64,000 bases of DNA from a virus (taxonomy: Duplodnaviria > Caudoviricetes), in the IMG/VR virus record IMGVR_UViG_3300003316_000399, positions 27,633-91,632 of that record. One strand, 5' to 3'. Positions within the stretch are counted from its first letter, which is position 1; every line of letters starts with the position of its first letter. The notes under the pieces are model-generated. The model was not told where the DNA came from, did no database searches, and was given only the letters and a program-made list of their open reading frames with translations. The position numbers and the translations under genes are program-made. Positions 1-59,043 of the stretch are shown here, in pieces.

Positions 1-724
1 GATCGATGTTTGTGTCTAGCCCAGAGGACCACCGAGCTAATCTCGCGGTCCATGCAGTGACGTGCCGTTCTGCATCACATGGTAGATACCACAATGATCC
101 GGTTTGTGTATAACTTTTCATCAATTCCAAGATATTTGTGAGCGGCGGGGAATTAGAGCTTGATATTGAATTACTGTAATCTGCCAGACGCACGTACAAA
201 ATTGACCACAACGCACAATCATAAGCATCGATACCGCTGAAACGAAATTGATAAATGTTGGAGTTTGGATTAGAGTTTGGGCTAAAAATATCATCACTAC
301 CAGTGTTCTCTACAGAAACAGAGGATTTAAAATAACTGTTTACAAAATGTGGTAGATTATCATTTGCTACTGTGTTACTAACAGCGCTGGTAAATTTTAC
401 AGTAAAATCATATGTATAAAATTTCTTCATCACATAATACATCAATAACATATCCGACATTGTAATGGAAGTACTATTAGTATACGCGTAATAATAGTCA
501 TAAGCGTCTTGGTTTACAAGATCAGCCTTAAGCCTGTCCACAGCCTTTTTCAACTCTGGACTCTGTTTAATCGCAAACTGAGTTGCGCAGAACAACCTAT
601 TAATACCTGCAATATTTTGCGACATTACTTCTCGACATACAAGATCAGAAAAATGAAACGACTGGCAGATTGATCCATTCTGCATATCAATCAAACGAAT
701 GGTAGCAGAAAAATTCCTTGGCAT
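1..724 (-). CDS. Hypothetical protein, >241 aa, truncated by the window edge (not in the ORF track)
   Basis: ATG at 724 preceded by AGGAGG (731-736) and a sigma70-like promoter; my translation (MPRNFSATIRLIDMQNG...) stays open to base 1. Confidence 0.75.
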   Translation of the reverse strand, partial: MPRNFSATIRLIDMQNGSICQSFHFSDLVCREVMSQNIAGINRLFCATQFAIKQSPELKKAVDRLKADLVNQDAYDYYYAYTNSTSITMSDMLLMYYVMKKFYTYDFTVKFTSAVSNTVANDNLPHFVNSYFKSSVSVENTGSDDIFSPNSNPNSNIYQFRFSGIDAYDCALWSILYVRLADYSNSISSSNSPPLTNILELMKSYTQTGSLWYLPCDAERHVTAWTARLARWSSGLDTNID

Positions 725-768
725 TTCTAGCCTCCTCTGTACGACCCGCCGTTCGTAAACATACGTGT

Positions 769-797
769 ATTATACATCAGACACATATATAATGCAA
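769..797 (-). promoter_or_regulatory. Sigma70-type promoter TTGCAT-N17-TATAAT
   Basis: Read directly on the minus strand, upstream of the RBS/ATG at 724. Confidence 0.7.
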
Positions 798-828
798 ACT
801 ATATGCAAACTATGAAATAGCCACTGTG

Positions 829-875
829 ACAAAAAGAAAACCTTCAGATAAAGAATTACATCTGAAGGTTTTCTT
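829..875 (-). terminator. Intrinsic terminator
   Basis: 16-bp inverted repeat AAGAAAACCTTCAGAT/ATCTGAAGGTTTTCTT ending in a U-rich tract on the minus strand, just after the 897-1859 gene. Confidence 0.75.
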
Positions 876-896
876 CTGCGCAAAGCAGAAATAAGA

Positions 897-1859
897 TTAA
901 AATATATTAGTTTTATATGACCATTGAGACATTGGATAAGAAATATATTCTGCAGAAATAGAGATAATATTTTTATCCGCAAACGCAACGCGGCAGATCC
1001 AGCCGCCGAGATCGCATACTAATCTCTTCTTACGCATAAACGGTGTCTGCTCTTGTGTTGTTGCTGTCTGTATCAGCCAAACACCACGATAGTTTGGCAC
1101 AAACGATGCTTTGTGATAATGACCATATGCAAGAATCTGAGGCAATTCCTCAGATCGATAACCATCAATGATCTTCTGCCCTGTATACGATAATGAATAA
1201 GCAGAACCTCCTCCGGGATGGAGTACACGAAGTATACCAGCTCGATTTTCCCGATCGATGTACACATCGCGTTCCATGTACCCAAGATATACTAAGTCAT
1301 TTCTCCCCTCGCGAATGGCTTTTGATTCAACATATTCACCAATGACGATGCCTTCTCGCTGAGTGTACCACCCCTCATGATCGTCACCATCAATATAATA
1401 TGTTGTAATTCCTTCGCGCTGAGGGTATGTGCGAACGAAATAGGCAGCCTGATTATCAAGACCATGTACGTGAACATCGTGCATATTATATTTACTCTCA
1501 CCATCAATATAATTACCAGTGTGAAACACTGAACACACGCCTGCTCGGGAGAAACGATCATATAGATCATTTAACATATCAATTCGCTCATAGTTAGAGC
1601 AAAGATGAGTATCACCGAGCAAGCCAATAACCACTTCGCGTTCTACTGAGGGGGTGTTATTTATTTCGACAGCATTTCTTCCGATTTGTCTCCGATATCG
1701 ACGAACGGCGGACCGTAATTGCTCACTGGAAATAGAGGTTTTCCAATGTGATGATAATTCTTGTGCAGACCGAGACCATGCTCCTGCATCATCAATAGCG
1801 CGTTGATCATCGTAAACTGAAATTGCATATTCTATTTTGTTTTTATCCCACACAATCAT
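897..1859 (-). CDS. Calcineurin-like metallophosphoesterase with an N-terminal helical (HTH-like) extension
   Basis: Motifs GDTH, TGNYIDG, GDDHE, HPGGG and GHYH in canonical order. Confidence 0.85.
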   Translation of the reverse strand: MIVWDKNKIEYAISVYDDQRAIDDAGAWSRSAQELSSHWKTSISSEQLRSAVRRYRRQIGRNAVEINNTPSVEREVVIGLLGDTHLCSNYERIDMLNDLYDRFSRAGVCSVFHTGNYIDGESKYNMHDVHVHGLDNQAAYFVRTYPQREGITTYYIDGDDHEGWYTQREGIVIGEYVESKAIREGRNDLVYLGYMERDVYIDRENRAGILRVLHPGGGSAYSLSYTGQKIIDGYRSEELPQILAYGHYHKASFVPNYRGVWLIQTATTQEQTPFMRKKRLVCDLGGWICRVAFADKNIISISAEYISYPMSQWSYKTNIF

Positions 1860-1880
1860 GTGTAAACTCCTTATATGTTG

Positions 1881-2372
1881 TTACGGTTGTAAACTAACAA
1901 TTTTTCCATCTTTTATACGAATAAAATAAATAGATTTGTTTTTCAGGCTGCGTGCGTAATTGATACAGTTTGCAGTTCCTCCACTTGTGCCATCCCAAAC
2001 CGCGACTAGCATATCAGCATGATCAACCATAAATTTATTACGAATCTGCATCTTTTCTGCTGAATAACCTCCATCACTCACTACAATAACTGAAGATGCT
2101 TCTTTCAAAAGATCTCTATAATGATTTTGACTCTGTGCAGGCCATCGGCTTTCCTGACCAACAAAAGGAATGGCTGCGATATATGGAATTTTACACTCAA
2201 GACATATCTCTGCAGCAATGGTATCAACACCTAATGCCATTCCGGTGATAATATAATCTGGTTTATAGGTTAAAAATATATTTTTAATCACAGCGCGTAG
2301 AGAGGTTATTAGTAATGTTTCTCCGTAACCACCTAATTTATTCGGCCTGTGTCCGGTAAATGCAATAATCAT
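1881..2372 (-). CDS. SLOG-superfamily (YspA/DUF1273-like) nucleotide-binding protein
   Basis: FTGHRPNKL, GMALGVD, RNKFMVD and WDGTSGGT motifs. Confidence 0.85.
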   Translation of the reverse strand: MIIAFTGHRPNKLGGYGETLLITSLRAVIKNIFLTYKPDYIITGMALGVDTIAAEICLECKIPYIAAIPFVGQESRWPAQSQNHYRDLLKEASSVIVVSDGGYSAEKMQIRNKFMVDHADMLVAVWDGTSGGTANCINYARSLKNKSIYFIRIKDGKIVSLQP

Positions 2373-2977
2373 AAAATTCCAGCTTCTTCCACAAGCTTAA
2401 TGATAATAAGCTCATTAAATCTCTCAATAAAGTTTAGCATAGCTACGTCGGGTGACCATCCCATGATTTCAACATCTGGCAATGGTGTTAACTTATCCAT
2501 ATTATGCCAAATGAATTTTGGCTCATGCATCACAACACAGCGCTCATTAAGTAAAATTCTGTTATCAATCTCATGAACCTCTCTCGGTATAGGATAATCT
2601 AGATTATAACGCCGTGCAATGGTTCGCAATATCGCCTCATCGGCCTCTTTATATCTTTTATAAAAATCACCCATTGCTATTTTAACAGGTCTTGGAAGAT
2701 CTACAAGTCCTAAACCTTCTGGTGCATCGTGCAGTAAACCCCACAATGCATTTTCAGGAGAACAAGATAATGATACGTGGTAACAATGCTCGGCCACACT
2801 GTAAAAGCGACGCGTGTGACCTCCGTATCGACACAAATTACTAAGCGCGTGAGCAATGTCTACAATACTGAAACTTCCATTTTCTGGATTAAGCGGCCAA
2901 AACGGCTTACCAGAAAATAATTGGATAGCGTTCTCCGTGTTCAATTGAAATATCTCCTCAATGTTATGCCGTTCCAT
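2369..2977 (-). CDS. HD-domain phosphohydrolase (YfbR-like 5'-deoxynucleotidase)
   Basis: DIAHALSNLCRYGGH, YSVAEHC, LLHDAPE and HEIDNRIL motifs. Confidence 0.85.
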   Translation of the reverse strand: MERHNIEEIFQLNTENAIQLFSGKPFWPLNPENGSFSIVDIAHALSNLCRYGGHTRRFYSVAEHCYHVSLSCSPENALWGLLHDAPEGLGLVDLPRPVKIAMGDFYKRYKEADEAILRTIARRYNLDYPIPREVHEIDNRILLNERCVVMHEPKFIWHNMDKLTPLPDVEIMGWSPDVAMLNFIERFNELIIIKLVEEAGIL

Positions 2978-2996
2978 TTTTCGTTATTCAATTTTG

Positions 2997-3368
2997 CTAT
3001 TCAAAAATTCTTCCATATCGAATTATTCTTCTCTGATACGCGCGGGCATTCGCTATGTATTTTGGATATTTTTTAAAGGCTGAATTTAGAAATTGTTCAT
3101 CTTTATAGCCAGATTTATCCTCTATTAACCCCAACGCCGCGATGAGTAATTCTTTCGCAGCGGGGAATCTTAAATTCAGTTCGTTAACCGAATAACCACT
3201 ATAATAATACCACAAACATAATATTTGGTCAAATGTTAGTTGCCCAGATCGGTACAATGCTGTTATTGTACCTATTAAATCAACACGGGTGTGTATATCA
3301 CATTTTTCGTCAAAAACATCATGTAACAATTCCTTTATATATCCAGCCATTTTATTATTATCCCTCAA
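2997..3368 (-). CDS. Hypothetical protein, possible sigma-region-4-like HTH
   Basis: Operon-embedded ORF; LTFDQILCLWYYYSGYSVNEL resembles a region-4 helix. Confidence 0.45.
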   Translation of the reverse strand: MRDNNKMAGYIKELLHDVFDEKCDIHTRVDLIGTITALYRSGQLTFDQILCLWYYYSGYSVNELNLRFPAAKELLIAALGLIEDKSGYKDEQFLNSAFKKYPKYIANARAYQRRIIRYGRIFE

Positions 3369-3370
3369 TA

Positions 3371-4078
3371 CTAATCAGAGCGTCCCAGACATGGCTCTCT
3401 GTATGAACAATAGGAACAGACCATACCAATATTTTTATCATAAATACCTGTTATTTCCGCGTCGAGTATTCGTTCCACTAGCCGTGTTACATTATCAATT
3501 TTTTCTTCAGATATAACATCAGCAAAAATATCTTTTGATGTTCGTAAATGATGCCAATAAACCACTTCTGGATCATAGCCCATTAATTGTTTAAACGCCT
3601 GCGCATATACAATAAACTGCGGATCGTTGTTTAGAACACCCTGTTTCGGCTGAAATTTACCCGTCTTTAAATCAATAAAACCATTCTCGTATACCTGATC
3701 GATAAATCCACGTATTTGACACAGCGCATTATTTGGGCTAGGGAATGGAATAATAAATTCTAGCTCATTCTCAACCGGCCTACGTTTTTCATAATCATAA
3801 CCCGTTACCATTTTAATACCACATCCATACTCCCGCGTATCGGGCAATAAATTATTCTCCTCATGTTCCTTATTCCAGGTATCGATAAACACATCAAGAG
3901 GGTTAGCATCCTCTTTGTAGTACTTTTCAATCGATCGATGTACTGCAGTTCCTAAAATAAGTGCTGTGGTTTTCGGTGATTCTCGTTTATCCACATACGA
4001 ATAATAGAACTGTTTTGGACATGCTGAAAATACTTTAATCTTACTCGCGGAGAGAGTTATCAATGACGACTCGCTCAT
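3371..4078 (-). CDS. Cas4/RecB-like PD-(D/E)XK exonuclease
   Basis: LSASKI..CP, GTAVH, GFIDQV..IDLKTG, Q..VY and C-terminal CSYCSYREPC (four-Cys Fe-S ligands). Confidence 0.85.
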   Translation of the reverse strand: MSESSLITLSASKIKVFSACPKQFYYSYVDKRESPKTTALILGTAVHRSIEKYYKEDANPLDVFIDTWNKEHEENNLLPDTREYGCGIKMVTGYDYEKRRPVENELEFIIPFPSPNNALCQIRGFIDQVYENGFIDLKTGKFQPKQGVLNNDPQFIVYAQAFKQLMGYDPEVVYWHHLRTSKDIFADVISEEKIDNVTRLVERILDAEITGIYDKNIGMVCSYCSYREPCLGRSD

Positions 4079-4349
4079 CTGTTACTAAACCTCCCACACT
4101 ATCGTGACCATAACAATCTATTTTCTCATCAAAATTTGGTTTGCGAAAAGCTTTAAAATCATAACCTTTAATTATGCCTTTACCATGAAGATATTCAACT
4201 GCTTGCATAAATCCTTTAATGCGGTCTTGAATATGGTTGTGATAAAAATCTCCTTCCATCACAATTTCCCCATCTATTAAAAGTTCCACACGCACCGCGT
4301 CTTCACCGCACAGTGCATCTGGATAATAGCTGTTTACAATGATGTTCAT
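4041..4349 (-). CDS. Hypothetical protein
   Basis: Operon-embedded ORF; likely start at MNIIVNSY. Confidence 0.55.
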   Translation of the reverse strand: MNIIVNSYYPDALCGEDAVRVELLIDGEIVMEGDFYHNHIQDRIKGFMQAVEYLHGKGIIKGYDFKAFRKPNFDEKIDCYGHDSVGGLVTDERVVIDNSLRE

Positions 4350-4351
4350 AG

Positions 4352-4660
4352 TTATCTCTGTTGGTATGTGGCAGTGCGTGCCATGTCTTTCCAATAATCT
4401 AGAAACTTGCACTCCGCTTCTAAGATATTGTAATTACGTTGTGCATTGATTTCAGCATCAAATAACTGCTCTAGTTCTCTAGAGGATGTTTCATCATACC
4501 CAATAATACGCGACGCAGTGTCACGAGGCCGTTCTTTCTTAATTCGCTCCTGAACTCTTTGTAACTCAAGCTGAGCAATCTTGAGCTGGGTTTTAGCTTC
4601 GGCAAAAGCTAGAATTTTTTCACGCGCTTCGAGGGGGTCTGGTAATTCTAACCAATTCAT
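4352..4660 (-). CDS. Hypothetical coiled-coil protein
   Basis: RBS GAGGAG upstream; helical composition; lies near recA. Confidence 0.65.
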   Translation of the reverse strand: MNWLELPDPLEAREKILAFAEAKTQLKIAQLELQRVQERIKKERPRDTASRIIGYDETSSRELEQLFDAEINAQRNYNILEAECKFLDYWKDMARTATYQQR

Positions 4661-4678
4661 ATACTCTCCTCAAATTAA

Positions 4679-4936
4679 TTATCCATGACATCTCTGATTT
4701 ACTTCTTCCTGAATTATATTTTCCATATTTAAGAATCGATTTAGCTCTTCTTCACTAAGAAATTTCATAAAATTGTATTGGTCTCTGCTATAATCGAAAT
4801 AATTATAACGTTGCGAAATATCATTTAAACTGTCCACACTTTCTTGTGCTTGTGAAAAAACTTGACGAAGGATGTATAAATCATTATTGGACAGATTCTT
4901 AACTAAATCAACAAAATTATCAGCAAGTACTGTCAT
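4679..4936 (-). CDS. Hypothetical protein
   Basis: Overlaps the end of recA, operon context. Confidence 0.55.
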   Translation of the reverse strand: MTVLADNFVDLVKNLSNNDLYILRQVFSQAQESVDSLNDISQRYNYFDYSRDQYNFMKFLSEEELNRFLNMENIIQEEVNQRCHG

Positions 4937-5879
4937 TTTTAACTCTTTCTAGTACTAAACTGTAAATCTCCTCAATTGGAAAAATATTTCCAGCATTATC
5001 TACACCTTGCGCTTTGAGATCATTATAACGATACCATGATCCGCTTTTTGCAATGATATCATAACGCAACGCCAGTGCTAGAATATCGGATTTGTGATCC
5101 ACTCCAGTTCCGTAAGTAATAAAGAATTCCGCGCGATTGCGCGATGACCCGCCACTTTTATTCTTCCGCGTTGTGGCTTGAATTATTACTTTATCATCCT
5201 CTGTTTTGATTTTTACAGTGTCGATGCGATATGACGGGTAATACTCTACTGCGAATCCACCAGCTGGCTTTTTTGTTTCAGGAGATAATGTATTCATATT
5301 TGCGCGATACTGATTGATAAGAACTAAGAAACCATCATTATTGTCCAGAAATGGATTAATGTTGCGCATCATGCGGCCAACGATATATGCAGTGGAAGCC
5401 ATCTTCTGATTGTCAGAAAAACCCTTACCAAGTTCACTAGAGGGTACAGCAGCGGGAACACTATCAATAATAATAAGTTTCCCCACCTCTTCAGCAATAA
5501 ATGTCATTGCAATGTCAAAGCCCTGCTCTGTTGTGTCAGGTCGCGCGACGATTAAATTTTCCAGATTTATTCCATTTATTGCTGCATATTCTGGTGTAAA
5601 AGTTCGCTCGAAGTCAACGTACAATTGATATTCATCTGGAGATAACGCTTGTCGCGCGCGTATGAAGTTAAGAGCAACAGTAGACTTACCAGATCCAGTA
5701 TCACCAACAAGCTGTACAATTCTACCACTTGGTAATCCATCAATCTCTTCTAAAGCAATATCTAATGACAATATACCGGTTGGAAAACGCGATCTTTCAC
5801 GATCGCGGTAGCGAGGATGCGGCTTATCCGCCGCGTCTAGTACATCCTTGAATTTTTTAAGTAAAAGCTCTTTACTCAA
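4920..5879 (-). CDS. recA: RecA/UvsX-like recombinase
   Basis: PTGILSLDIAL, GLPSGRIV, Walker A GDTGSGKS, YVDFE, IIIDSVPA, INQYR. Confidence 0.93.
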   Translation of the reverse strand: MSKELLLKKFKDVLDAADKPHPRYRDRERSRFPTGILSLDIALEEIDGLPSGRIVQLVGDTGSGKSTVALNFIRARQALSPDEYQLYVDFERTFTPEYAAINGINLENLIVARPDTTEQGFDIAMTFIAEEVGKLIIIDSVPAAVPSSELGKGFSDNQKMASTAYIVGRMMRNINPFLDNNDGFLVLINQYRANMNTLSPETKKPAGGFAVEYYPSYRIDTVKIKTEDDKVIIQATTRKNKSGGSSRNRAEFFITYGTGVDHKSDILALALRYDIIAKSGSWYRYNDLKAQGVDNAGNIFPIEEIYSLVLERVKNDSTC

Positions 5880-6195
5880 TGTAATCCCTCCGTGAAATAT
5901 CGCAGAAAATAGATCTCGTATAAATCTTATTACTTTGCATTATATATGTCAGATCAAAACTAAGTGGCCCGGTGCGTATTAATTTTGTACAAATACATTT
6001 ATCCTCTTTAGAAGGCGGTACAAAAAATAAACCTTTTTTAACATACGCGCGCACGAAACTCTTACACATATCCTTTACTAATCTACGCGTTGCGTAATAT
6101 AAAGAATCTCCCATATACATGAAGGCTATAGGCTCGGGTGTACAATGAGCTGCATTTGGCTCTTTAATAATACGGAACTTATAAAATGCTCGCAT
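5872..6195 (-). CDS. Hypothetical protein
   Basis: RBS GGGGAG, operon context. Confidence 0.55.
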   Translation of the reverse strand: MRAFYKFRIIKEPNAAHCTPEPIAFMYMGDSLYYATRRLVKDMCKSFVRAYVKKGLFFVPPSKEDKCICTKLIRTGPLSFDLTYIMQSNKIYTRSIFCDISRRDYIE

Positions 6196-6204
6196 TTTTC
6201 TCCC

Positions 6205-6423
6205 CTATGCAAGATATTTTGATGAGTGAAATGTGCTAAATGTAACAAGGATATCATCACCCTCGTCGGATGATGTTGGAATTTGACACACAACGTTAAT
6301 CATTGAACTGGGAGAAAATGGAAATCCTCCCATTTTACATTTGAGACCATACCATTCACAAATCTGTTTAATAAATAAATCTGCTTCCTCGACATTCTTC
6401 ACAGTACGCGTGACAATTACCAT
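6205..6423 (-). CDS. Hypothetical protein
   Basis: RBS AAGGAG; first gene after the promoter at 6459-6487. Confidence 0.6.
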   Translation of the reverse strand: MVIVTRTVKNVEEADLFIKQICEWYGLKCKMGGFPFSPSSMINVVCQIPTSSDEGDDILVTFSTFHSSKYLA

Positions 6424-6458
6424 ATATACTCCTTTTTATATCCCTTTATTTATATAAA

Positions 6459-6487
6459 ATTGTAACATAATGCAGCTTATTTGTCAA
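6459..6487 (-). promoter_or_regulatory. Sigma70-type promoter TTGACA-N17-TACAAT with extended -10 TG
   Basis: Read directly; intergenic between polA and the recA operon. Confidence 0.85.
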
Positions 6488-6496
6488 TACTCTGGC

Positions 6497-8464
6497 TTAT
6501 TTGTCGTAACGCGTGCTGATTTTTGGAGAGGCTTTGATCATTCCAATAGGAAGATCTGGAAATAGTGTATAACCAGCCTCTTCCATACCTTCACCGGTGA
6601 TCTTTGCAGCCTCTTCCACATATTCGTCACGCGCTTCTACAATAATTTCATCATGCACAACTGCCACAATGTGCGCATACCGACTGTCCAAGCGGCTGTC
6701 TACGATATATTCAGCAAGTTTCGTCATATCAGCTGAACTGCTCTGAATAGGCTGATTCTTACCCTCTCGCTGTGCAGCGAACAATCGTTTCTTACTCAAG
6801 CGAATATCTGGAGTCCATCTTCGTCTGCGACCTATAACGCTTTCAGTATAATATTGTGTAATGGCTTTACGAGCATTAGAATCTAGAAACTGTCCTGTTT
6901 TTGGAAACAATCGTGTAAGCCAATCATTGACCCATCTATCTGCGTCATTCCGCGTGATTTGCATGCCAACTGTATACAATGGAAGGGCACAAGTTTTGTA
7001 TAAATTAAATCCAGTACTTCCATATACCACGCCGTAACTGACGCGCTTAAATTCGTTCCTAATAAGCTTACCGGGCATGATTTCCTTAGTCTCTTTATTA
7101 AGTAAATCACCAACTATATCAATAATTTTTTCCCGCTCTAAACTATTGCCCACAAAGCTGTGAATATCGCCATGCATGATTTGTTCACGAAGATTCTCAT
7201 CTCCAGACCAAGCCGCAAGAATGACAAGCTCGATACCAGAATAATCCGAGATAATAAACTTGGAACCTTTCGGCGCCACAAACATTGAGCGAATATCATA
7301 GTTACCAAGTCCAAGATTTGTAAGCTTATCTTTATTTGGCATATTTTGAAAATTAGGATTTGAAGATGAGCGCCTACCCGTTGCTACTGCACCACATTGA
7401 CTAAATCTCGGATGAATTTTTCCTGTCACTGGATTGATCTTTTCCAGAATACCGAGTAGATATGTACCACGAATCTTATTCGCGGCTTTAAACACCGAGT
7501 AAAGTTTTAAGAACGGGTGCGCATAGCCGAGATGTAGCTCTTCGTCGCCCTCATTAAATTCATCCTCGATGAACATATCATCTACAACTTTATCCTTATT
7601 GCTGAGTGCCCAATTTCCATCCCAACTCGTCAAATCTTTTTTGTCCAATGTTTCAACATCAATGCCCATTCCATTAACAATGGACAGCATTTGTGGTTGA
7701 CTGTTTGGGTTTACAGCAATAATACCATCTCGACAAAACAAAATTCCATCCGCCAATCCATTTCTAATAACAGTATTTTGTATTGCTTGGAATGATCGAT
7801 CGATAAGATTATTAATTGGAGGAATAGCAGATTCCATACGTTCGCGATCAACACAAATCCCATTATATTCCATACGCGCGGTGATGGGAATGTTTCCGCA
7901 TTCTAACTCAATTACACGTTCTTGTTTCTCCTGTTTAATTTCCTTCAACTGCTGTGAGTAAATCTCTTTAAGAACCTCTGTATCTCGCGATGCGTAGACA
8001 AGCATGTCTTCTGAAAGCTTCTCCCCGGAGATAAATTTATCACGCACGGTTTTATCCAGCTCGACGCCTATACGGCGGTACGTTACGTCGGCAAGGCTAA
8101 AGCCATAATCACTGATACCGGCTTTCAACACCTGTTCAGCTATCATCGTACAATAAACTCGCGGCATTGCTACACCGAGGTGATGATATACTTGCTGCCA
8201 ATCAAATGTCATGTTATGTGCAACAATTGGCCCTTCGTCTTTAGTACGAATCAACCTCTCAGCTAACACTTGTAATTGCGCGCGATTGAATTTGCTACAA
8301 TCAACAATATATGAGGTATCATCAAAATATAGTTGTAGTAATGTTAATGTATTTGTGTAGGGATCAAGACCTGTTGTCTCAGTATCAAAAAATACAGGAC
8401 CTCCGTAAAAGAATAAATGATCAGCACAATCGTATAACTTATTTATATCGTCAATCAAAATCAT
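6497..8464 (-). CDS. polA: Family A DNA polymerase with 3'-5' exonuclease domain
   Basis: ExoI DTETTGLD, AHNMTFD, YASRD; ATGRRSSSNPNFQNMP; motif A DYSGIEL, motif B R.EFKRVSYGVVYG, motif C VHDEI. Confidence 0.95.
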   Translation of the reverse strand: MILIDDINKLYDCADHLFFYGGPVFFDTETTGLDPYTNTLTLLQLYFDDTSYIVDCSKFNRAQLQVLAERLIRTKDEGPIVAHNMTFDWQQVYHHLGVAMPRVYCTMIAEQVLKAGISDYGFSLADVTYRRIGVELDKTVRDKFISGEKLSEDMLVYASRDTEVLKEIYSQQLKEIKQEKQERVIELECGNIPITARMEYNGICVDRERMESAIPPINNLIDRSFQAIQNTVIRNGLADGILFCRDGIIAVNPNSQPQMLSIVNGMGIDVETLDKKDLTSWDGNWALSNKDKVVDDMFIEDEFNEGDEELHLGYAHPFLKLYSVFKAANKIRGTYLLGILEKINPVTGKIHPRFSQCGAVATGRRSSSNPNFQNMPNKDKLTNLGLGNYDIRSMFVAPKGSKFIISDYSGIELVILAAWSGDENLREQIMHGDIHSFVGNSLEREKIIDIVGDLLNKETKEIMPGKLIRNEFKRVSYGVVYGSTGFNLYKTCALPLYTVGMQITRNDADRWVNDWLTRLFPKTGQFLDSNARKAITQYYTESVIGRRRRWTPDIRLSKKRLFAAQREGKNQPIQSSSADMTKLAEYIVDSRLDSRYAHIVAVVHDEIIVEARDEYVEEAAKITGEGMEEAGYTLFPDLPIGMIKASPKISTRYDK

Positions 8465-8476
8465 CTTTCGATCCTT

Positions 8477-52726: not shown

Positions 52727-54267
52727 CAAACACGACAATAAAACTGGCAAAAGCTGTTGCCTCATCCAGCTTTGTCCAGTTTGTACCTGGAACAAATGGT
52801 ACACAAACAACAAATAGATTTGGCGTATATGCAGATGGACATTATGGAGATCCAGCAAGTTTTGGATTTCCTCTGGATTTCCATTCAGAAGTGAGGCAGT
52901 GTAGGTTTTTCTATCGATATGATCCTATCGCTTCAACAACAATTAATAGAATGGCTGACATGTGTGTAACAAAACTCAGAAATAAACGCGGCAAATGTAC
53001 TGATGAAGAATTTAATTATTTTCAAGGATTGCAAGATTCACTTACACAGGTGTTAAAAGATGCAGCTCTGGAATATCTTATTACCGGTTTGGTCATTATT
53101 GATTACGGTGTAGAGAAATCTATGGGTAACAAAATTCATTCTAATCTCGGGAGAACTAGATATTCAATACCGACTCCGCTATGGGTTCGTAACCCGGATA
53201 CTATTAGAATGAAGAAGCTTCCCGCCGGTGCTGGTCGTCGTGTATATGTTACGATCACGTCCGATGAAGCTAATTTCATCATCCATGAGGGATTAAGACC
53301 AGATGGTACAAAAGATACAGATTTGTATAATGAATTTAAACGCAGTTTTCCTGAGTATGTAGCGCTGGTTAAACGCGGCGATAAAGAAATTCCCCTGGAA
53401 CATGTACATCCTGTTTTGAGAAAATCAACGACAAATTCAGATTACCCACAGCCATTTCTTACCCCCGCGCTTGCCCCACTTAAACATAAATGGCGTATTA
53501 AGCAAATGGATTATTCTATCGCAACCCGCGCTATTGAATCTATTTTGCACGTCAAGGTTGGTAACGATGATTTTCCTGTCGAGCCTGATGATGGTGCTAT
53601 TGATAATCTGCGTCAGCAGATGGAGGAGCGAAGATCTGGATTACAGGAAATCATCTATCGTCTCATTACAAACCATACAGTCGATATGAAATGGATTTAT
53701 CCACCGCTGGATGCACTTCTCTCCGACCAAAAATATAATGAACCGAATGCAGATATTTTTGTAGCAATGGGATTTAGCCGCACATTACTAGTAGGAGAGG
53801 CACTTCGTAGCAATTCTGGAGGTGCAAGTGGTACAGCTGGTCCAATTGCTACGCTAAACGAAGCGCGCGAACAACTTCTTAACTGGGTAAGAAAGTTATA
53901 TAAGGATCTTGCAGAATTAAATGGGTTTAAGAACATTGCAATTCCATCTTTTCCACCTATTCCATCATCAGAAATTATGGGGCTTGTACAATACGCCATT
54001 GAGGCAGCAAAATTCGGCGCTCTTTCTAAGAATAGTGTTGCTGAAATTTTTGGCACTGATTATGAAACAGAGCGCGAACAGCAAGAAATTGAGCTTAATT
54101 TCACAATAGATGATCAAAAGAAAATGCAGGAAGCATTTCCTAATCAATCAATCTCAACAAATGATGGTAAATTATTAATGAAACCATCAAATGAGGGAGC
54201 TATATCCACTGATAATAAATCCGATGCAGTGCCGACTTCCACAAGTAATACAAAGAAGGGAGCATAA
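52723..54267 (+). CDS. Portal protein
   Basis: About 514 aa directly after terL; CRFFYRYDPI..T.IN motif; ATGA overlap. Confidence 0.8.
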   Translation: MTNTTIKLAKAVASSSFVQFVPGTNGTQTTNRFGVYADGHYGDPASFGFPLDFHSEVRQCRFFYRYDPIASTTINRMADMCVTKLRNKRGKCTDEEFNYFQGLQDSLTQVLKDAALEYLITGLVIIDYGVEKSMGNKIHSNLGRTRYSIPTPLWVRNPDTIRMKKLPAGAGRRVYVTITSDEANFIIHEGLRPDGTKDTDLYNEFKRSFPEYVALVKRGDKEIPLEHVHPVLRKSTTNSDYPQPFLTPALAPLKHKWRIKQMDYSIATRAIESILHVKVGNDDFPVEPDDGAIDNLRQQMEERRSGLQEIIYRLITNHTVDMKWIYPPLDALLSDQKYNEPNADIFVAMGFSRTLLVGEALRSNSGGASGTAGPIATLNEAREQLLNWVRKLYKDLAELNGFKNIAIPSFPPIPSSEIMGLVQYAIEAAKFGALSKNSVAEIFGTDYETEREQQEIELNFTIDDQKKMQEAFPNQSISTNDGKLLMKPSNEGAISTDNKSDAVPTSTSNTKKGA

Positions 54268-54270
54268 TTT

Positions 54271-57200
54271 ATGGCGGTATCAGAATCGCGAGTCATTTCG
54301 CTCTCTAGGTCTGTCACACGTGATGTGGTAGATCCTATTATTTTAAAAATGCGTCAAGACTTGTATGGTTCTGGTGTTACATATAGTAAATATTTACGGG
54401 AAGATATATTACCGCCCAGTGTTCCTAAAGGAGACAATGATGTAATTGAAATTGTCGAGGATGCCGGGTTTATTAGGGGTCTTACTGTATACTCAGGATC
54501 ATATCACATAGCTGACGATCAAAAAATATTTGTGTTCGGCGGCATGAACGTTTCTACAAGTGGTGACACAACATTTATTTCATTGCCGGAATTTGGAACT
54601 CACAATCATGATGATAGATATTATACAAAAACTGAAATACAAACCTTATTAAGCGCAAAAGCAAATTTAAACCATTCTCACACACATTTCGATATCTCGG
54701 ACTGGACTACAGCCGTAGCCACACACCCAGCCGTGGCTGCAAACACAGAAAAAGTTACAAACGCCACGCATACAGGTGATGTTACTGGTAGTGGATATCT
54801 TACTATCCAATTAGACGCGGTAACATTGGACAAAATTGCAGATAGTGGTGCTTTAGAAGGACAAGTAATTTTATACCACAGTGGAAACTGGATAGTTGGT
54901 TATCCAGAAGTTGGTAGCGGAGTTCTTGTTATCCACGCAAGCACACATTATAGTGGCGGCACTGATCCTATTGATCCATCAGGTATCGGTGCAGCAACAC
55001 AAATAGCGTTGGATCAAGAAATTGCTGATCGTATAGACAGTTTAAATATACATAGCTCATTAATTGCATCGCCAACAACACTTGGTCATATAAAAGTTGG
55101 TCAATATTTAACTATTGATCCAGATGGAACATTGAATGCCATATCAGTTAGTGGAATACAAGATGTAACTATTGCGCACGGTGATTTACTATATAATTAT
55201 AGCGGAGAAATCACACGTTTACCAGTTGGACCTGAAGGATATTATCTATCCGTCATCAACGCGACACCAGTGTGGACTAGTTTTAGTGGTATAGATGGTG
55301 TTACTGTTATTGATGAAGATAATACAGTGTATAGCAGTGTAAAAACGTTGAAGTTTTTACATAGTTTAGTTACTGAAGTATCAGGATTAGCGACAATATC
55401 TCCAGGATTATCAATATTTGACCGAGATGGGAATGAGATCTCGCAATATGCACATACCATTGATTTTGCTAGTGGTTTTGATGTATCAATTATTGGAGCT
55501 GGGCATGTAAGAATTACAACCACTACCGCGTCAGATTTAAATGAACATGCTGCTGTTGTTGCAACTGATGAAATACTTGGACATGTTATAATTGGCGATG
55601 GTATTGATGTAACAGAAAGCGGCGTTATTTCATTTAAGGGAATTACCGTCACCGATTCTCAAAATGAAACAGAGCTGACTAATATCAAGGTGTTGAATCT
55701 ATATCGTGGCAGGGTTCAAGCAAGTGGTGATTCAATAGCACGTTTATTGCCAGCAATTTTTGTTGAAACAATTGATGGTACTGTTATAAACGCACATACT
55801 GAAATATTAGCCCTGGGTGCTGGTATTACCGCCACAGCTTCAGGACAAGGACGTGTTGTGCTAACCGCTGCACAAGCTGAAGATTTCATCGTGCAGACAA
55901 TCACCGATGGATTAACAACAAAAGCTCCATCATCCGACGCGGTGTATGATCATATTGCAGCTTTAAATTTTGACGATCGCTATTTCACAAAAGCAGAGAT
56001 CAGTGGCTTTCTATCAATGAAAGCTAATGTTACACATACACATTTGTCATCGCAAATTCTAGATTTTGATGCTGCTGTTTCTAATGTTCCAGATGTTGTG
56101 GCAAACACGGCAAAAGTTAGTAACGCGACACACATTGGTGAGGTTGAAGGAAGCGGTTATCTTACTATTAAAGATGGTGTAGTAACGCTTTCTAAATTGT
56201 TTGCTGAAGATATTCTTGAAGGACAGGTTATTATTTTCCGAGATGGAGAGTGGCAATATGGTACTCCAGATGTAGTAGCTGTCGCATCCGGCGATATTGA
56301 TGGAGGGTTTTTCACAACACCCGGCGCTACTATTAGGCTCAAACGCGGTAATGCTATCGATGCACCAACATTAGCAATTGGAGAATTGGGATGGAGGCTT
56401 GATACACAAGAATTATATATTGGTCATAGTACGGGTGATAAACTTATCCAGAACGCTATTCAGCTACGCGGTCGGCCTGTTGAAACTGATTCTCCAACTG
56501 AACAGCAAGTTCTTATCTGGAGCGAAGCGCAGGATGCCTGGGTTAATGGCATGGTGGAATATGTTAATAATGCTGGAAATTTAGCCGGATACCCACCTGA
56601 ATATTTTCTTAACACTTCCCATTTAACCACATATGCAACTACTAGTGGTTGGGGACATGTGCGCATTGGTACAGGTATTCATGTTGACAGCAGTGGAATA
56701 ATTACGAATGATATCGGAATTGTAAGTGGAGAATTAACTGAGCATTCAACAAAAATTGCTTCAACCACGGAGTTAGGACATATTATTGTTGGTAATGGAT
56801 TATCCATTGATCCATTTGGTGTACTGTCCGCTGCGGCAGGAAGTGGTGAATTTAGTGATCCAACAGTAAACGTTGGAGACATTATCTATCGCGGTCCTGA
56901 TGGCCTTACAAAGCTTCCGATAGGTGATGATGGACAATTTCTCAGTGTATACAGTGGTTTGCCGAGCTGGAGCAACGCGGATTCTATACCACCGCCTGAA
57001 AGCGTTTTAACAGATGAATTTGAAATTCCTGGTGCGTTAAACTCTAAATGGACAGTACTTAATTCTAGTAATATTGTTACTAACGACGTGAGTACGACTC
57101 ATGCAGGTGCATATTATGCGAAACATCGAGACGAGCCGGGTCAGGGTGACTTTATTTCCGGTATTTACCAAACTATGACAGGTGCGGATTTTGAAGTAAC

Positions 57201-57600
57201 CGCGAAAGTATCTGTCCTTGGACGTTATGCTGACTATCTACTTGGTGGATTGGGAATTAGAGAAGCCAGTGGTAACAAAATTGCACTGCTATCGCTTGCA
57301 AGAAACGCAGCGGGCGGTCTTTGTAACTTCTTAAAATATAATTCACCAACATCGTTTAACTCAGGAGCACCTGCTGCTGGTTTACAGGGTTTTGTTATGC
57401 CAACATTGTATATGAAACTGCGCTTAGAATCCGGTGTTATTTGGATACATTATTCGTTAGACGGGTTATATTGGCAACTTATACATACTGAGACATGGAC
57501 ATTCTTTACACCAGGATATGTTGGTTTATTTATCAACAATGTAAATACTGGATTGGACGCGGAGCTTATTTGCGACTGGTTCAGATTCAAGTATTTATAG
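54271..57600 (+). CDS. Modular fibre/receptor-binding virion protein
   Basis: HDDRYYTK.E and H.H repeats, LGH..VG.GL.ID repeats, Mtd-N-like IRLKRG..L..GELG..DT..LYIG, C-terminal ConA/GH43-C-like beta-sandwich (YSLDG..W, DWFR). Confidence 0.8.
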   Translation: MAVSESRVISLSRSVTRDVVDPIILKMRQDLYGSGVTYSKYLREDILPPSVPKGDNDVIEIVEDAGFIRGLTVYSGSYHIADDQKIFVFGGMNVSTSGDTTFISLPEFGTHNHDDRYYTKTEIQTLLSAKANLNHSHTHFDISDWTTAVATHPAVAANTEKVTNATHTGDVTGSGYLTIQLDAVTLDKIADSGALEGQVILYHSGNWIVGYPEVGSGVLVIHASTHYSGGTDPIDPSGIGAATQIALDQEIADRIDSLNIHSSLIASPTTLGHIKVGQYLTIDPDGTLNAISVSGIQDVTIAHGDLLYNYSGEITRLPVGPEGYYLSVINATPVWTSFSGIDGVTVIDEDNTVYSSVKTLKFLHSLVTEVSGLATISPGLSIFDRDGNEISQYAHTIDFASGFDVSIIGAGHVRITTTTASDLNEHAAVVATDEILGHVIIGDGIDVTESGVISFKGITVTDSQNETELTNIKVLNLYRGRVQASGDSIARLLPAIFVETIDGTVINAHTEILALGAGITATASGQGRVVLTAAQAEDFIVQTITDGLTTKAPSSDAVYDHIAALNFDDRYFTKAEISGFLSMKANVTHTHLSSQILDFDAAVSNVPDVVANTAKVSNATHIGEVEGSGYLTIKDGVVTLSKLFAEDILEGQVIIFRDGEWQYGTPDVVAVASGDIDGGFFTTPGATIRLKRGNAIDAPTLAIGELGWRLDTQELYIGHSTGDKLIQNAIQLRGRPVETDSPTEQQVLIWSEAQDAWVNGMVEYVNNAGNLAGYPPEYFLNTSHLTTYATTSGWGHVRIGTGIHVDSSGIITNDIGIVSGELTEHSTKIASTTELGHIIVGNGLSIDPFGVLSAAAGSGEFSDPTVNVGDIIYRGPDGLTKLPIGDDGQFLSVYSGLPSWSNADSIPPPESVLTDEFEIPGALNSKWTVLNSSNIVTNDVSTTHAGAYYAKHRDEPGQGDFISGIYQTMTGADFEVTAKVSVLGRYADYLLGGLGIREASGNKIALLSLARNAAGGLCNFLKYNSPTSFNSGAPAAGLQGFVMPTLYMKLRLESGVIWIHYSLDGLYWQLIHTETWTFFTPGYVGLFINNVNTGLDAELICDWFRFKYL

Positions 57601-57624
57601 TTATACAATAAGAAAGGATGTATT

Positions 57625-58410
57625 ATGAATATTGATACATCGACATACAATAAAACTATTCGTTTTCCAGCAACATTGGGAGAATTACCCATTGGCTGGG
57701 GAAATACAAATCTGGGTCGTAGACCAGGAAAACCGCGAAGTATTTTGATTCACACTACAAATAATCCACATCCCAATACAACATTTGAACAAGAGGCCGC
57801 ATTCCTTTTCAAGGATCATTTAGTAAGTGCGAATTATATCGTTGGACGCGCGGGACAAATAGCAGTTATTGTACCGGATAACCTTGTTGCGTGGCATAGC
57901 GGTGACTGTGTAGATAATGATTATGAAAATACATGGTCCATAGGCATTGAAATACATTGGTCACCGGCTAATGGGTATATGCCAGATTCCATCGTGCAAA
58001 CTGTAACAGAATTAGTGCGATCTATTCTAGCGCGATATCCTGATATTAAGAAAATTGACACACACCGCGCACAAGCGGTTCCTAAGGGGCGCAAAACCGA
58101 TCCTGATGGCTGGGATGATACACGATTCTACTCCTGGCGTAGTGAAATGCTATCACAAAACAACAATACAGGATATACAGGATATACAAAATATGGAAAA
58201 ATTGAATATTACAAAGTAATTCGTGGTCCAGCGCGGGTGCGTACATCTCCACATTTTGGTGATAACATTGTCCGCACATTACCTGTGGGAGAAATTATTG
58301 GTATTGATTCTTCGACTGTTTATGGTGATTATTGGGAAGGGAGTAATATTTGGTCACATTACGCAACAGATGAAGGCTTTATTCATAGTTTACTCCTAGA
58401 AAAGGTTTAA
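57625..58410 (+). CDS. Endolysin: N-acetylmuramoyl-L-alanine amidase (Amidase_2) with SH3-like domain
   Basis: ILIHTT, SANYIV, AWHSG, SIGIE, H...KTDP; C-terminal RVRTSP..GFIHS. Confidence 0.9.
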   Translation: MNIDTSTYNKTIRFPATLGELPIGWGNTNLGRRPGKPRSILIHTTNNPHPNTTFEQEAAFLFKDHLVSANYIVGRAGQIAVIVPDNLVAWHSGDCVDNDYENTWSIGIEIHWSPANGYMPDSIVQTVTELVRSILARYPDIKKIDTHRAQAVPKGRKTDPDGWDDTRFYSWRSEMLSQNNNTGYTGYTKYGKIEYYKVIRGPARVRTSPHFGDNIVRTLPVGEIIGIDSSTVYGDYWEGSNIWSHYATDEGFIHSLLLEKV

Positions 58411-58437
58411 TAAGGTTTCATATTATAGAGGAATCAT

Positions 58438-58992
58438 ATGTTTTCTATTACATTTACTGATTTGATATCTACTTTAATGTCAGTATCATCGCTTATTGTT
58501 CCAGGTATCATTCCTACCATTGGCCCATTGATATTCATCGAACAGCAAGTAATACCAACGGATACAAGTAATACGGGGTTATTCCTTTGGATTATTGGGG
58601 GATTGGCGGGAACAATCGGCGGCATGGGATTATTACTACGCACACAAGTCATGCCATTTATTCAGAAGCAGATTGAGATAAATCAGCAAGCGCATATAGA
58701 GGCTGAAAAACAAATGCTCGCGCGCTATACTGAACAACGTGATTATTTTATTCTACAAATAGAAAAGCTGCAGAGTGTTAATCAAGAACAAAGTACAAAA
58801 TTACTTACCGCGTTTTTACAACAGACAGAAGTAAGTTTACTCTTGCGCGATGCTGTAGCGCGGCTTGGTGATAGATTAGAGGATTTAGAACAAAAGGTAG
58901 ACGCATTGTTATTACGTAATGCCCAAATTACACCACACGCTTCACCATACATTGCATCACAGGCTGCAACAATTATGCCTGACAAGAACTAG
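58438..58992 (+). CDS. Holin-like membrane protein with coiled coil
   Basis: Hydrophobic segments (GLFLWIIGGLAGTIGGMGLLL) next to the endolysin. Confidence 0.55.
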   Translation: MFSITFTDLISTLMSVSSLIVPGIIPTIGPLIFIEQQVIPTDTSNTGLFLWIIGGLAGTIGGMGLLLRTQVMPFIQKQIEINQQAHIEAEKQMLARYTEQRDYFILQIEKLQSVNQEQSTKLLTAFLQQTEVSLLLRDAVARLGDRLEDLEQKVDALLLRNAQITPHASPYIASQAATIMPDKN

Positions 58993-59043
58993 ATAAGAAC
59001 TAGATTATAATCAAACTATAATTATCAAATGTATCCCCCTTTG

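What the first reader, a model, noticed from the sequence alone, without database searches (positions are those of the whole stretch)
1..59000. Widespread over-representation of the palindrome CGCG in AT-rich DNA
Manual count in 1-6000: about 34 CGCG (overlaps included) versus about 9 GGCC and 7 CCGG, which have identical composition; roughly 8 are expected at about 38% GC. In very AT-rich 43281-43700 there are 7 CGCG (43281, 43295, 43443, 43445, 43478, 43640, 43697) where fewer than 1 is expected. Many are made with otherwise disfavoured synonymous codons (AAC GCG, CGC GGT). Established: phages normally deplete palindromes, CGCG is the target of ThaI/FnuDII/BstUI restriction systems, and cyanobacterial HIP1 is a precedent for an enriched, methylase-linked palindrome. 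Inference: either CGCG is a selected self-mark or protein-binding site, or methylation and repair protect these sites from a C>T drift that eroded the rest of the genome.
Basis: partly seen in the sequence, partly recalled or inferred. Interest (0 to 1): 0.8.

Follow-up and report, generated by a model that had tools for sequence, protein, structure and literature searches.

The report
CGCG excess in palindrome-purged phage
An uncultivated AT-rich phage has removed at least 15 restriction-type six-letter palindromes from its DNA, yet carries the four-letter palindrome CGCG 30-40% more often than any context model predicts, while many of its relatives have almost none; the cause is not known.

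Summary

**How strong it is**
- In window 1-59000, CGCG is the most over-represented of 256 tetranucleotides: 265 sites against 171 expected by maximal-order Markov (z 9.6) and 82 expected from base composition.
- In coding DNA of the whole 87-kb phage there are 403 sites. Codon-preserving shuffles give 212 (z 16.6). Shuffles that also keep dinucleotides give 308 (z 11.3).
- The excess occurs in all three codon frames and in 72 of 85 genes. It is confined to silent sites and has no longer motif.

**What does not explain it:** compositional heterogeneity, or the purge of about 15 palindromic hexamers (4 sites against 194 expected).

**Two layers:** a clade-wide preference for alternating C/G words, shared with GCGC, plus a CGCG-specific extra of 1.3-1.4x.

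**Comparisons:** none of 63 related phage loci or 40 bacterial samples matches it. At least 12 relatives have purged CGCG almost completely.

**Methylase link:** the phage has no C5 methylase and no Vsr. Its two methylases look adenine-specific.

**Reading:** the cause is unresolved. I favour a lineage-specific substitution or repair bias (0.4) over a weakly selected DNA mark (0.3).

Earlier notes of this scan report CGCG-type excess in other AT-rich phages.

The parts
1..59070 (.). AT-rich body of an uncultivated tailed phage (continues 27.6 kb upstream of the window). It carries 265 CGCG sites in 1-59000 and 434 over the whole 86.7 kb
   Evidence: CGCG ranks 1 of 256 under the Markov, codon-shuffle and dicodon-shuffle nulls. 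PolA, class II RNR, ThyX, portal, TerL with intein, 2830-aa tail protein.
43281..43700 (+). Most are Arg CGC followed by a G-initial codon
   Evidence: positions 43281, 43295, 43443, 43445, 43478, 43640, 43697; sequence; no repeat family beyond a weak 22-nt pair.
8840..9643 (-). Phage DNA methyltransferase 1 (267 aa), PF01555 beta-class, motif IV DPPY. Probably N6-adenine, so unlikely to act on CGCG
   Evidence: PF01555, 6.8e-32; NCBIfam CcrM-like adenine MTase, below cut-off; best solved relatives M1.HpyAVI-type adenine MTase 1.5e-32 and CcrM 4.8e-25.
49465..50154 (+). Phage DNA methyltransferase 2 (229 aa), PF01555, DPPY, next to the terminase gene. It belongs to a very large family that sources name adenine-specific
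   Evidence: more than 6400 homologues at E<=1e-10, the listed ones about 55-63% identical; JGI name 'site-specific DNA-methyltransferase (adenine-specific)'.
59300..64000 (.). GC-rich (59%) tail of the same contig. It has no CGCG excess (42 sites against 49 expected) but shows the same hexamer purge and an even stronger CATG purge
   Evidence: CGCG z -1.5; CATG 1 against 18; avoided hexamers 1 against 24.7; an independent Logan assembly has the same junction.

Best explanation
The excess has two layers.

Layer 1 is ordinary. Like its relatives and many AT-rich genomes, this phage prefers alternating C/G words. This raises both CGCG and GCGC to about 2.4x base composition and is fully captured by di- and trinucleotide context.

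Layer 2 is specific to this phage. A weak directional force acts on the tetranucleotide itself at silent sites. Wherever the protein allows it, in any codon frame, CGCG is about twice as likely to be spelt as without the context. That adds roughly 100-130 sites (O/E 1.3-1.4).

I think layer 2 is most likely a lineage-specific, context-dependent substitution or repair bias: CGCG is lost more slowly, or regained more often, during this phage's own replication and repair. It has no dedicated reader. It is visible because this phage, unlike many relatives, is not being cut at CGCG.

Shown: the excess is real, acts at the DNA or word level, is genome-wide and weak, and is not clade-wide. Inferred: its cause, and that the phage escapes CGCG restriction.
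For: - Size and style fit a bias rather than a functional word. O/E is 1.42 or 1.31 (dicodon shuffle).
- All three frames are enriched: O/E 1.49, 2.24 and 2.44. 72 of 85 genes are affected.
- Spacing is Poisson-like, CV 0.97, and the largest gap is as expected.
- No flanking motif.
- No change in CGCG-permissive dipeptides, z between -0.9 and +1.2, so proteins are not bent to make sites.
- The accessory first 20 kb shows a weaker excess (O/E 1.16) than the core genes (1.5-1.6). That fits slow accumulation.
- It is not a by-product. Shuffles constrained to avoid the purged hexamers still give 212 sites. Local Markov O/E is 1.35-1.40. Other all-G/C words stay lower: GCGC 0.97, CCGG 0.99, CGGC/GCCG 1.31, CCGC/GCGG 1.15.
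- It is phage-specific. In 63 related loci the O/E averages 0.77, and the highest value with at least 40 sites is 1.36. Relatives with the same hexamer-purge profile have O/E 0.70-1.08.
- In 40 bacterial samples the maximum is 1.14.
Against: - No enzyme that could impose such a bias was found.
- The neighbours one mutation away show no transition-specific deficit. The losers are spread over A- and T-ending alternatives, as selection on the word would also predict.
- The GC-rich tail of the same contig shares the restriction-site purge but has no CGCG excess: 42 sites where 70 would be expected at O/E 1.42. A bias imposed by the phage's replication should also act there unless the tail is a recent arrival or host DNA.
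- O/E over base composition falls as local GC rises (3.6, 3.3, 2.8, and about 1.2 in the tail). That also fits selection for site density, although GCGC shows the same trend.
Confidence: 0.4

Rival explanations
1. CGCG is a weakly selected double-stranded DNA word. It would be a self-mark, or the target of a sequence-specific modifying or binding factor of the phage or its host. A minimum density per kilobase would be advantageous in AT-rich DNA. This is HIP-like in logic but far weaker.
For: - It is palindromic, the kind of 4-bp site that dimeric DNA enzymes read.
- CGCG is clearly under biological pressure in this clade: at least 12 relatives have 0-8 sites per ~20 kb, z down to -8.7.
- All alternatives lose roughly in proportion, as with selection on the word.
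- The GC-rich tail, which already has 9 sites per kb, shows no excess.
- O/E is highest in the most AT-rich stretches.
- ARAGORN predicts a phage tRNA-Ala(CGC) that would read GCG, the codon used in the nnC|GCG frame.
- Earlier scan notes report CGCG-type excess in other AT-rich phages (unchecked AI notes).
Against: - No reader was found. Both methylases look adenine-specific.
- The effect is only 1.3-1.4x over context.
- Spacing is random.
- There is no amino-acid cost.
- There is no CGCG-specific excess in non-coding DNA, though power there is low.
- Relatives do not share it.
Confidence: 0.3
2. One reading: CGCG is methylated (C5 or N4) and either shielded from deamination or restored by a Vsr-type very-short-patch repair. 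It would then survive or grow while other G/C words decay. The analogy is Dcm/Vsr and CCWGG in E. coli.
For: - The magnitude resembles what I recall for the VSP effect on CCWGG (from memory, not checked here).
- CGCG restriction-modification systems evidently exist among hosts of this clade, so CGCG methylases should too.
Against: - No C5 methylase and no Vsr in the record.
- The phage methylases carry DPPY and match adenine enzymes.
- TGCG/CGCA and CGTG/CACG are not specifically depleted: z from -2.1 to +2.1, no more than transversion neighbours. CGT before G is not reduced.
- The tail, exposed to the same host, shows no excess.
- Most relatives are AT-rich, so there is no evidence of erosion from a GC-rich state.
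Confidence: 0.1
3. The phage merely mirrors its host's oligonucleotide signature: the host genome has the same CGCG excess.
For: - Phage tetranucleotide usage often tracks the host (general knowledge).
- The host is unknown, so this cannot be tested directly.
Against: - 40 bacterial genome samples from three phyla have CGCG O/E 0.00-1.14, mostly among the most under-represented words.
- A published survey gives a mean CGCG ratio of 0.62 (PMC3077040).
- Relatives sharing the same 15-hexamer purge, and so probably the same host group, have O/E 0.70-1.08.
- The GC-rich tail lacks the excess.
Confidence: 0.08
4. It is a by-product of codon usage, junction dinucleotides, compositional mosaicism or the purge of other palindromes; or it is an effect at the mRNA or translation level rather than on DNA.
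For: - Under the codon shuffle GCGC is also enriched 1.55x, and relatives show 1.4-2.4x. So part of the raw excess is indeed such a baseline.
- The CGCG-specific part is seen only in coding DNA.
Against: - The dicodon shuffle still gives z 11.3.
- The shuffle constrained to avoid the purged hexamers leaves the expectation unchanged at 212.
- Local Markov O/E is 1.35-1.40.
- All three frames are enriched, which argues against a codon-pair or tRNA cause.
- The CpG-CpG excess is sharp at spacing 2 (2.75x) against 1.0-1.4x elsewhere.
Confidence: 0.07

Closest known systems
HIP1 (GCGATCGC) and alternate highly iterated palindromes of cyanobacteria (Elhai 2015, PMC4390886; Xu et al. 2018, PMC5861425)
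   Same: A short palindrome is over-represented beyond Markov and codon nulls. It is written into genes in all frames, its function is unresolved, and a link to methyltransferases has been suggested.
   Different: HIP1 is an 8-mer, 15-300-fold enriched according to the abstract of PMC5861425, and chromosomal. It comes with identified orphan methylases for its core. Here the word is a 4-mer at 1.3-1.4x over context, in a phage, with no matching methylase, and it is not shared by relatives. HIP1 itself occurs 0 times in this phage.
Very-short-patch repair signature
   Same: A modest over-representation of a methylase target, produced by biased mismatch correction with no reader function. The effect size is similar.
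   Different: No C5 methylase or Vsr in the phage. The T-containing deamination products are not specifically depleted.
Restriction-site avoidance in phages (Rusinov et al. 2018, PMC6286503)
   Same: The word is a classical type II target (ThaI/FnuDII/BstUI, from memory). The same genome purges 15 hexamers and CATG, and many relatives purge CGCG itself.
   Different: The sign is opposite: CGCG is the most over-represented tetranucleotide here.
Oriented self-marking words (Chi, KOPS, DNA uptake sequences)
   Same: Genome-wide over-represented short words that mark DNA for a protein machine.
   Different: From general knowledge, those words are 5-12 nt, asymmetric and strand-polar, and many-fold enriched. 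CGCG is a 4-bp palindrome with weak enrichment and random spacing.
CGCG/GCGCG excess in other AT-rich uncultivated phages noted earlier by this scan (e1-3284105, e1-3261779, e1-5869746, e1-5893246; unchecked AI notes)
   Same: The same word class, in AT-rich phage DNA, at silent codon positions in all frames, with the cause unknown.
   Different: Those notes describe several-fold to 40-fold excess shared by close relatives. Here the excess over context is 1.3-1.4x, no close relative exists, and distant relatives range from neutral to fully purged.

Membership tests
Counter-selected restriction site (R-M avoidance) | The word is significantly under-represented relative to context models | tested here: not met
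   CGCG O/E 1.42, z +10.1. By contrast the feature is met for 15 hexamers (4 sites against 194 expected), for CATG (z -7.0), and for CGCG in at least 12 relatives.
HIP-type highly iterated palindrome | A palindromic word over-represented beyond Markov and codon-preserving nulls, in all frames | tested here: met
HIP-type highly iterated palindrome | Enrichment of an order of magnitude or more (15- to 300-fold for HIP1) | tested here: not met
   3.15x over base composition and 1.3-1.4x over context.
HIP-type highly iterated palindrome | A cognate (orphan) methyltransferase for the word or its core encoded in the genome | tested here: not met
   No PF00145. The two PF01555 enzymes have DPPY and match adenine MTases. 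Specificity was not measured, and host genes are not visible.
HIP-type highly iterated palindrome | Shared across the lineage | tested here: not met
   63 related loci: mean O/E 0.77, and none with at least 40 sites exceeds 1.36. No relative above about 58% portal identity exists in the databases searched.
VSP-repair-driven over-representation (Dcm/Vsr type) | A C5-cytosine methyltransferase for the word | tested here: not met
   No PF00145 match at E<=1 in six frames of the 91.6-kb record. The host is not testable.
VSP-repair-driven over-representation (Dcm/Vsr type) | A Vsr-type T:G mismatch endonuclease | tested here: not met
   No PF03852 match at E<=1. The host is not testable.
VSP-repair-driven over-representation (Dcm/Vsr type) | A specific deficit of the T-containing deamination products of the word | tested here: not met
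   TGCG, CGCA, CACG and CGTG have z from -2.1 to +2.1 under both shuffles, no lower than the transversion neighbours.
Oriented self-marking words (Chi/KOPS/DUS) | An asymmetric word with strand polarity | tested here: not met
   CGCG is its own reverse complement. The best extension, ACGCGG/CCGCGT, is strand-symmetric at 47 against 41.
Phage-encoded protective methylation of the enriched site | A phage methyltransferase able to modify cytosine (C5, or N4 with an SPPY-type motif) | tested here: inconclusive
   Sequence features point to adenine: DPPY, and best matches M1.HpyAVI-type and CcrM. Specificity can only be settled by a methylome.

The most novel reading that the evidence does not exclude
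CGCG is a genuine self-mark of AT-rich phages. It would be a HIP-like word read or modified by an as yet unknown factor, kept at a useful density by weak selection. Its sign would flip between lineages, from near-total purge to enrichment, according to whether the host cuts or only tolerates or modifies it. The recurrence of CGCG-type excess in several unrelated AT-rich phages noted by this scan would then reflect one undescribed system.
Probability: 0.25. Interest if true: 0.8.

Novelty: new variant of a known kind. Interest (0 to 1): 0.45.

Why it matters
Short palindromes in phage DNA are usually read as scars of restriction, and this genome shows that clearly with about 15 hexamers erased.

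A classical restriction word that goes the other way in the same genome, while sister lineages erase it, marks CGCG as a contested site in this phage-host world. If it is a bias, it is a fingerprint of an unknown replication or repair peculiarity. It is also a warning for k-mer-based host prediction. If it is selected, it points to an undescribed DNA-marking or DNA-reading system in phages.

Either way, the paired pattern of enriched and purged relatives gives a concrete, testable system.

Tried and rejected
- **Longer motif.** Flank profile, hexamers to octamers and site spacing show nothing beyond CGCG, except that CCGCGG is absent.
- **Compositional mosaic.** Local Markov expectations leave O/E at 1.35-1.40.
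- **General clustering of G/C.** GCGC, CCGG and CGCC are at expectation; only CGGC/GCCG (1.31) and CCGC/GCGG (1.15) are mildly raised.
- **By-product of the hexamer purge.** The constrained shuffle is unchanged at 212, and relatives with the same purge lack the excess.
- **VSP-like neighbour deficit.** Absent.
- **Amino-acid-level adaptation.** Absent.
- **Regular spacing.** Absent, CV 0.97.
- **Host identification failed.**
  - No nucleotide match in the phage collection.
  - The nearest cultured PolA is 28% identical, from Pseudanabaena phages.
  - The genome-contig scan gave only three short MAG contigs from unrelated phyla: TM6, Ignavibacteriales, Arenicella.
  - The protein atlas gave only a weak Bacteroidota lead for the endolysin.
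  - No paper mentions SRR1926121.
- **Left contig end.** Three exact-protein look-ups to recover the ~2 kb trimmed from the left contig end found nothing.
- **Rfam.** No hits in the window.
- **Literature.** A search for organisms with the purged hexamer set returned only noise.
- **Density-homogenisation test.** Poisson slope 0.63 +/- 0.15, but other words vary as much, so it is uninformative.
Full report
**What the DNA is**

The window is the last 64 kb of a 91.6-kb IMG/VR record labelled 'provirus'. An independent Logan assembly of run SRR1926121 holds the same 93.8-kb contig, including the junction to the GC-rich end.

The AT-rich body (record 1-86,700; window up to about 59,070) is a tailed phage of virulent type. 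It encodes:
- PolA with a 3'-5' exonuclease, a class II ribonucleotide reductase and ThyX;
- dUTPase, dCMP deaminase, a RecA-like protein and DnaB;
- a portal, a TerL interrupted by an intein, and a 2830-aa tail protein;
- an amidase endolysin, glycosyltransferases and a large amidoligase operon;
- six predicted tRNAs.

Nothing cultured is close. PolA is 28% identical to Pseudanabaena and crAss-like phages. Among 5.8 billion proteins the nearest portal is 53-58% identical. The portal does define a populous uncultured clade with contigs of up to about 120 kb.

**Checking the observation**

In 1-59000 there are 265 CGCG sites. Base composition predicts 82 and a maximal-order Markov model predicts 171 (z 9.6). 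CGCG ranks first of 256 tetranucleotides. Over the whole 86.7-kb phage there are 434 sites, O/E 1.42, z 10.1, and the next word reaches z 6.

- Permuting synonymous codons within each gene gives 212 +/- 11.5, against 403 observed (z 16.6).
- A dicodon shuffle that also preserves all dinucleotides gives 308 +/- 8.4 (z 11.3).
- CGCG is the top word under both nulls.

Further checks:
- Markov expectations computed in 1-, 2- or 5-kb windows still leave O/E 1.35-1.40, so large-scale heterogeneity is not the cause.
- Among the ten classes of all-G/C tetramers only CGCG stands out. GCGC is 0.97, CCGG 0.99, CGCC 1.02 and GGCC 0.73, while CGGC/GCCG is 1.31 and CCGC/GCGG is 1.15.
- CpG-CpG pairs are 2.75x enriched at spacing 2. 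They are 1.39x at spacing 3 and about 1.0-1.3x beyond.

**Anatomy of the excess**

All three codon frames contribute. Under the codon shuffle, O/E is 1.49 for CGC|G, 2.24 for nCG|CGn and 2.44 for nnC|GCG.

Codon choice depends on context:
- Ala is GCG in 40% of cases after a C, against 14-25% otherwise.
- Arg is CGC in 33% of cases before a G, against 12-21% otherwise.
- An NCN codon ends in G in 42% of cases before a CG-initial codon, against 15% otherwise.

Other properties:
- Seventy-two of 85 genes of at least 300 nt exceed their own shuffle expectation. Replication, structural and accessory genes are all affected.
- There is no flanking motif. The best hexamer, ACGCGG/CCGCGT (z 4.3), is largely the mirror image of the total absence of CCGCGG.
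- Spacing is Poisson-like, with CV 0.97 and the largest gap as expected.
- The frequencies of dipeptides that permit CGCG are as in shuffled proteins (z -0.9 to +1.2). The force acts only on silent sites.
- In 8.3 kb of non-coding DNA, which includes the tRNA cluster, CGCG (33 sites) equals GCGC (34). It exceeds a dinucleotide shuffle (21.8, z 2.6) but not the Markov expectation (30.2). Power there is low.

**Two layers**

Under the codon shuffle GCGC is also enriched (1.55x). In 17 relatives GCGC runs mostly between 1.3x and 2.4x and CGCG between 0.84x and 1.67x. So a preference for alternating C/G words is a clade-wide baseline, explained by junction dinucleotides. That baseline accounts for most of the 3.15x excess over base composition.

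What is peculiar to this phage is the further 1.3-1.4x, about 100-130 sites. It survives the dicodon and Markov nulls.

**How unusual it is**

I took DNA around the portal gene of 63 relatives (33-54% identity) from IMG/VR, Logan, ENA, JGI and NCBI assemblies.
- Their CGCG O/E (Markov) averages 0.77 (sd 0.39).
- The highest value with at least 40 sites is 1.36.
- The highest ratio to base composition is 2.39, against 3.15 here.
- At least twelve relatives have almost no CGCG: 0-8 sites per 10-21 kb where the Markov model expects about 9 to 49, with z down to -8.7.

So CGCG-specific restriction is evidently common among the hosts of this clade, and the focal phage sits at the opposite extreme.

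Forty 20-kb samples from bacterial genomes gave O/E 0.00-1.14, often among the lowest of all 256 words. They came from Pseudomonadota, the phylum of an Ignavibacteriales MAG, and one TM6 genome. A published survey gives a mean CGCG ratio of 0.62 across genomes (PMC3077040).

**The genome is otherwise purged of palindromes**

Including words with zero counts revealed that 15 palindromic hexamers are essentially absent from the 86.7-kb body. Together they total 4 sites against 194 expected from composition. Fifteen control hexamers total 411 against 340.

The purged hexamers are CCGCGG (0 against 19 by Markov), GTGCAC, GGATCC, CTCGAG, TTCGAA, GCCGGC, GAGCTC, GCTAGC, TGGCCA, TCCGGA, CGGCCG, GTCGAC, AGGCCT, GACGTC and CTTAAG. 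CATG is also depleted (228 against 330, z -7.0).

The phage is therefore exposed to many type II systems, and its DNA is presumably cleavable. This makes its 434 CGCG sites meaningful: either its hosts do not cut CGCG or the sites are protected.

The purge does not create the CGCG excess, for two reasons:
- Codon shuffles forced to avoid all these hexamers still give 212 CGCG.
- Seven relatives with the same purge profile (O/E 0.05-0.14 for the set) have CGCG O/E of only 0.70-1.08. One of them, L016, has just 3 CGCG sites and is uninformative.

The second point also argues against a cause imposed by that host group in general.

**The GC-rich tail**

Window 59300-64000 is 59% GC, and its ORFs match no family. 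It shares the hexamer purge (1 against 24.7) and has a single CATG against 18 expected. So it has evolved under the same restriction regime, whether it is a phage early region, a recent acquisition or host DNA.

It has no CGCG excess: 42 sites against 49 expected. At O/E 1.42 about 70 would be expected. This speaks against a host-imposed mutational bias. It is compatible either with selection for site density, since the tail already has 9 sites per kb, or with a phage-imposed bias if the tail is recent.

**The methylase link**

A six-frame search of the whole record finds no C5 methylase (PF00145) and no Vsr (PF03852) at E<=1.

The two methylases, 8840-9643 (-) and 49465-50154 (+), are PF01555 beta-class enzymes whose motif IV is DPPY.
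- Their best solved relatives are an M1.HpyAVI-type adenine methylase and CcrM.
- NCBIfam matches, below cut-off, are to adenine methylases.
- The second belongs to a family of more than 6400 homologues; the 120 listed are about 55-63% identical, and where a source names them specifically the name is adenine-specific.

Relatives carry different methylases at the same position, irrespective of their CGCG status. From established knowledge, N4-cytosine enzymes of this class typically carry SPPY. I therefore read both as N6-adenine enzymes that cannot act on CGCG, but only a methylome can settle this.

The VSP-type prediction also fails. The deamination products TGCG/CGCA and CGTG/CACG are no more depleted than the transversion neighbours. 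CGT before G is not reduced, and the loss falls mostly on A- and T-ending alternatives and on AGA.

**Interpretation**

- *Shown:* a real, DNA-word-level, genome-wide, weak, phage-specific excess at silent sites. It is not a by-product of codons, dinucleotides, heterogeneity or the hexamer purge. It is not clade-wide, and it was not seen in the bacteria sampled.
- *Inferred:* its cause.
- *Favoured (0.4):* a lineage-specific context-dependent substitution or repair bias without a reader. The grounds are the small effect size, random spacing, absence of any protein-level cost, and the weaker signal in the accessory first 20 kb (O/E 1.16 against 1.5-1.6).
- *Serious rival (0.3):* a weakly selected DNA mark or binding or modification site. 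The grounds are the proportional loss of all alternatives, the tail result, the higher O/E in the most AT-rich stretches, a predicted phage tRNA-Ala(CGC) for GCG, and the clear biological relevance of CGCG in this clade.
- *Lower:* methyl-shielding or VSP repair (0.1), host mimicry (0.08), and by-product or RNA-level causes (0.07).

**Relation to earlier notes of this scan**

Other follow-ups reported CGCG or GCGCG excess in other AT-rich uncultivated phages (e1-3284105, e1-3261779, e1-5869746, e1-5893246). One of them concluded in favour of a substitution or repair bias. These are unchecked AI notes and do not count as evidence. They do suggest the phenomenon recurs, and that this case is a mild one. 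What this case adds is the contrast within a single clade between purged and enriched lineages.

**Verdict**

This is a new variant of a known kind, namely a genome-signature or HIP-like word and the inverse of restriction avoidance. Interest is moderate.

Noticed in passing
window 1-59070 (and the record upstream): Fifteen palindromic hexamers are essentially absent: 4 sites in total against 194 expected, while 15 control hexamers give 411 against 340. The purged set is CCGCGG, GTGCAC, GGATCC, CTCGAG, TTCGAA, GCCGGC, GAGCTC, GCTAGC, TGGCCA, TCCGGA, CGGCCG, GTCGAC, AGGCCT, GACGTC and CTTAAG. This is a sharply bimodal restriction-avoidance profile and implies hosts with many type II systems. 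Seven relatives share the same profile.
   Followed up: partly
window 59300-64000: The 59% GC tail has ORFs without any family. It shares the hexamer purge (1 against 24.7) and has 1 CATG against 18 expected, stronger than the body (O/E 0.69). Its tetranucleotide z-profile correlates 0.33 with the body. It looks like part of the same phage-host system, possibly an early-entering region, rather than a random host flank. No integrase or tRNA was found in the window.
   Followed up: partly
loci L027, L047, L054, L063, L064, L066, L085, L045, L055, L057, L059, L039 (relatives): Related phages have purged CGCG almost completely: 0-8 sites per 10-21 kb in most of them, with z down to -8.7. Several also deplete palindromic hexamers in general. 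CGCG-specific restriction must be common among hosts of this clade.
   Followed up: partly
record 8995-16091 (upstream of the window; L002): ARAGORN finds tRNAs for AGA, AAA, GGA, ATA and TTA, plus a 91-nt tRNA-Ala(CGC) that would read GCG. The A-ending set suggests a host richer in G+C than the phage. The Ala(CGC) gene matches the codon used in one CGCG frame.
   Followed up: no
window 50144-52726: The large terminase gene is interrupted by an intein with a LAGLIDADG homing-endonuclease domain. Relatives show the same, or a split arrangement.
   Followed up: no
whole record: The IMG/VR label 'provirus' and the CheckV completeness of 53% look doubtful. The gene content is that of a virulent phage, the contig (93.8 kb) falls in the size range of the clade's longer contigs (about 80-120 kb), and about 2 kb was trimmed from the left end.
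   Followed up: partly
window 49465-50154: The 229-aa methylase next to the terminase belongs to a very large family with more than 6400 homologues; the listed ones are about 55-63% identical. It is found on phage-like contigs from many sources, including Streptococcus and Gracilibacillus records.
   Followed up: no
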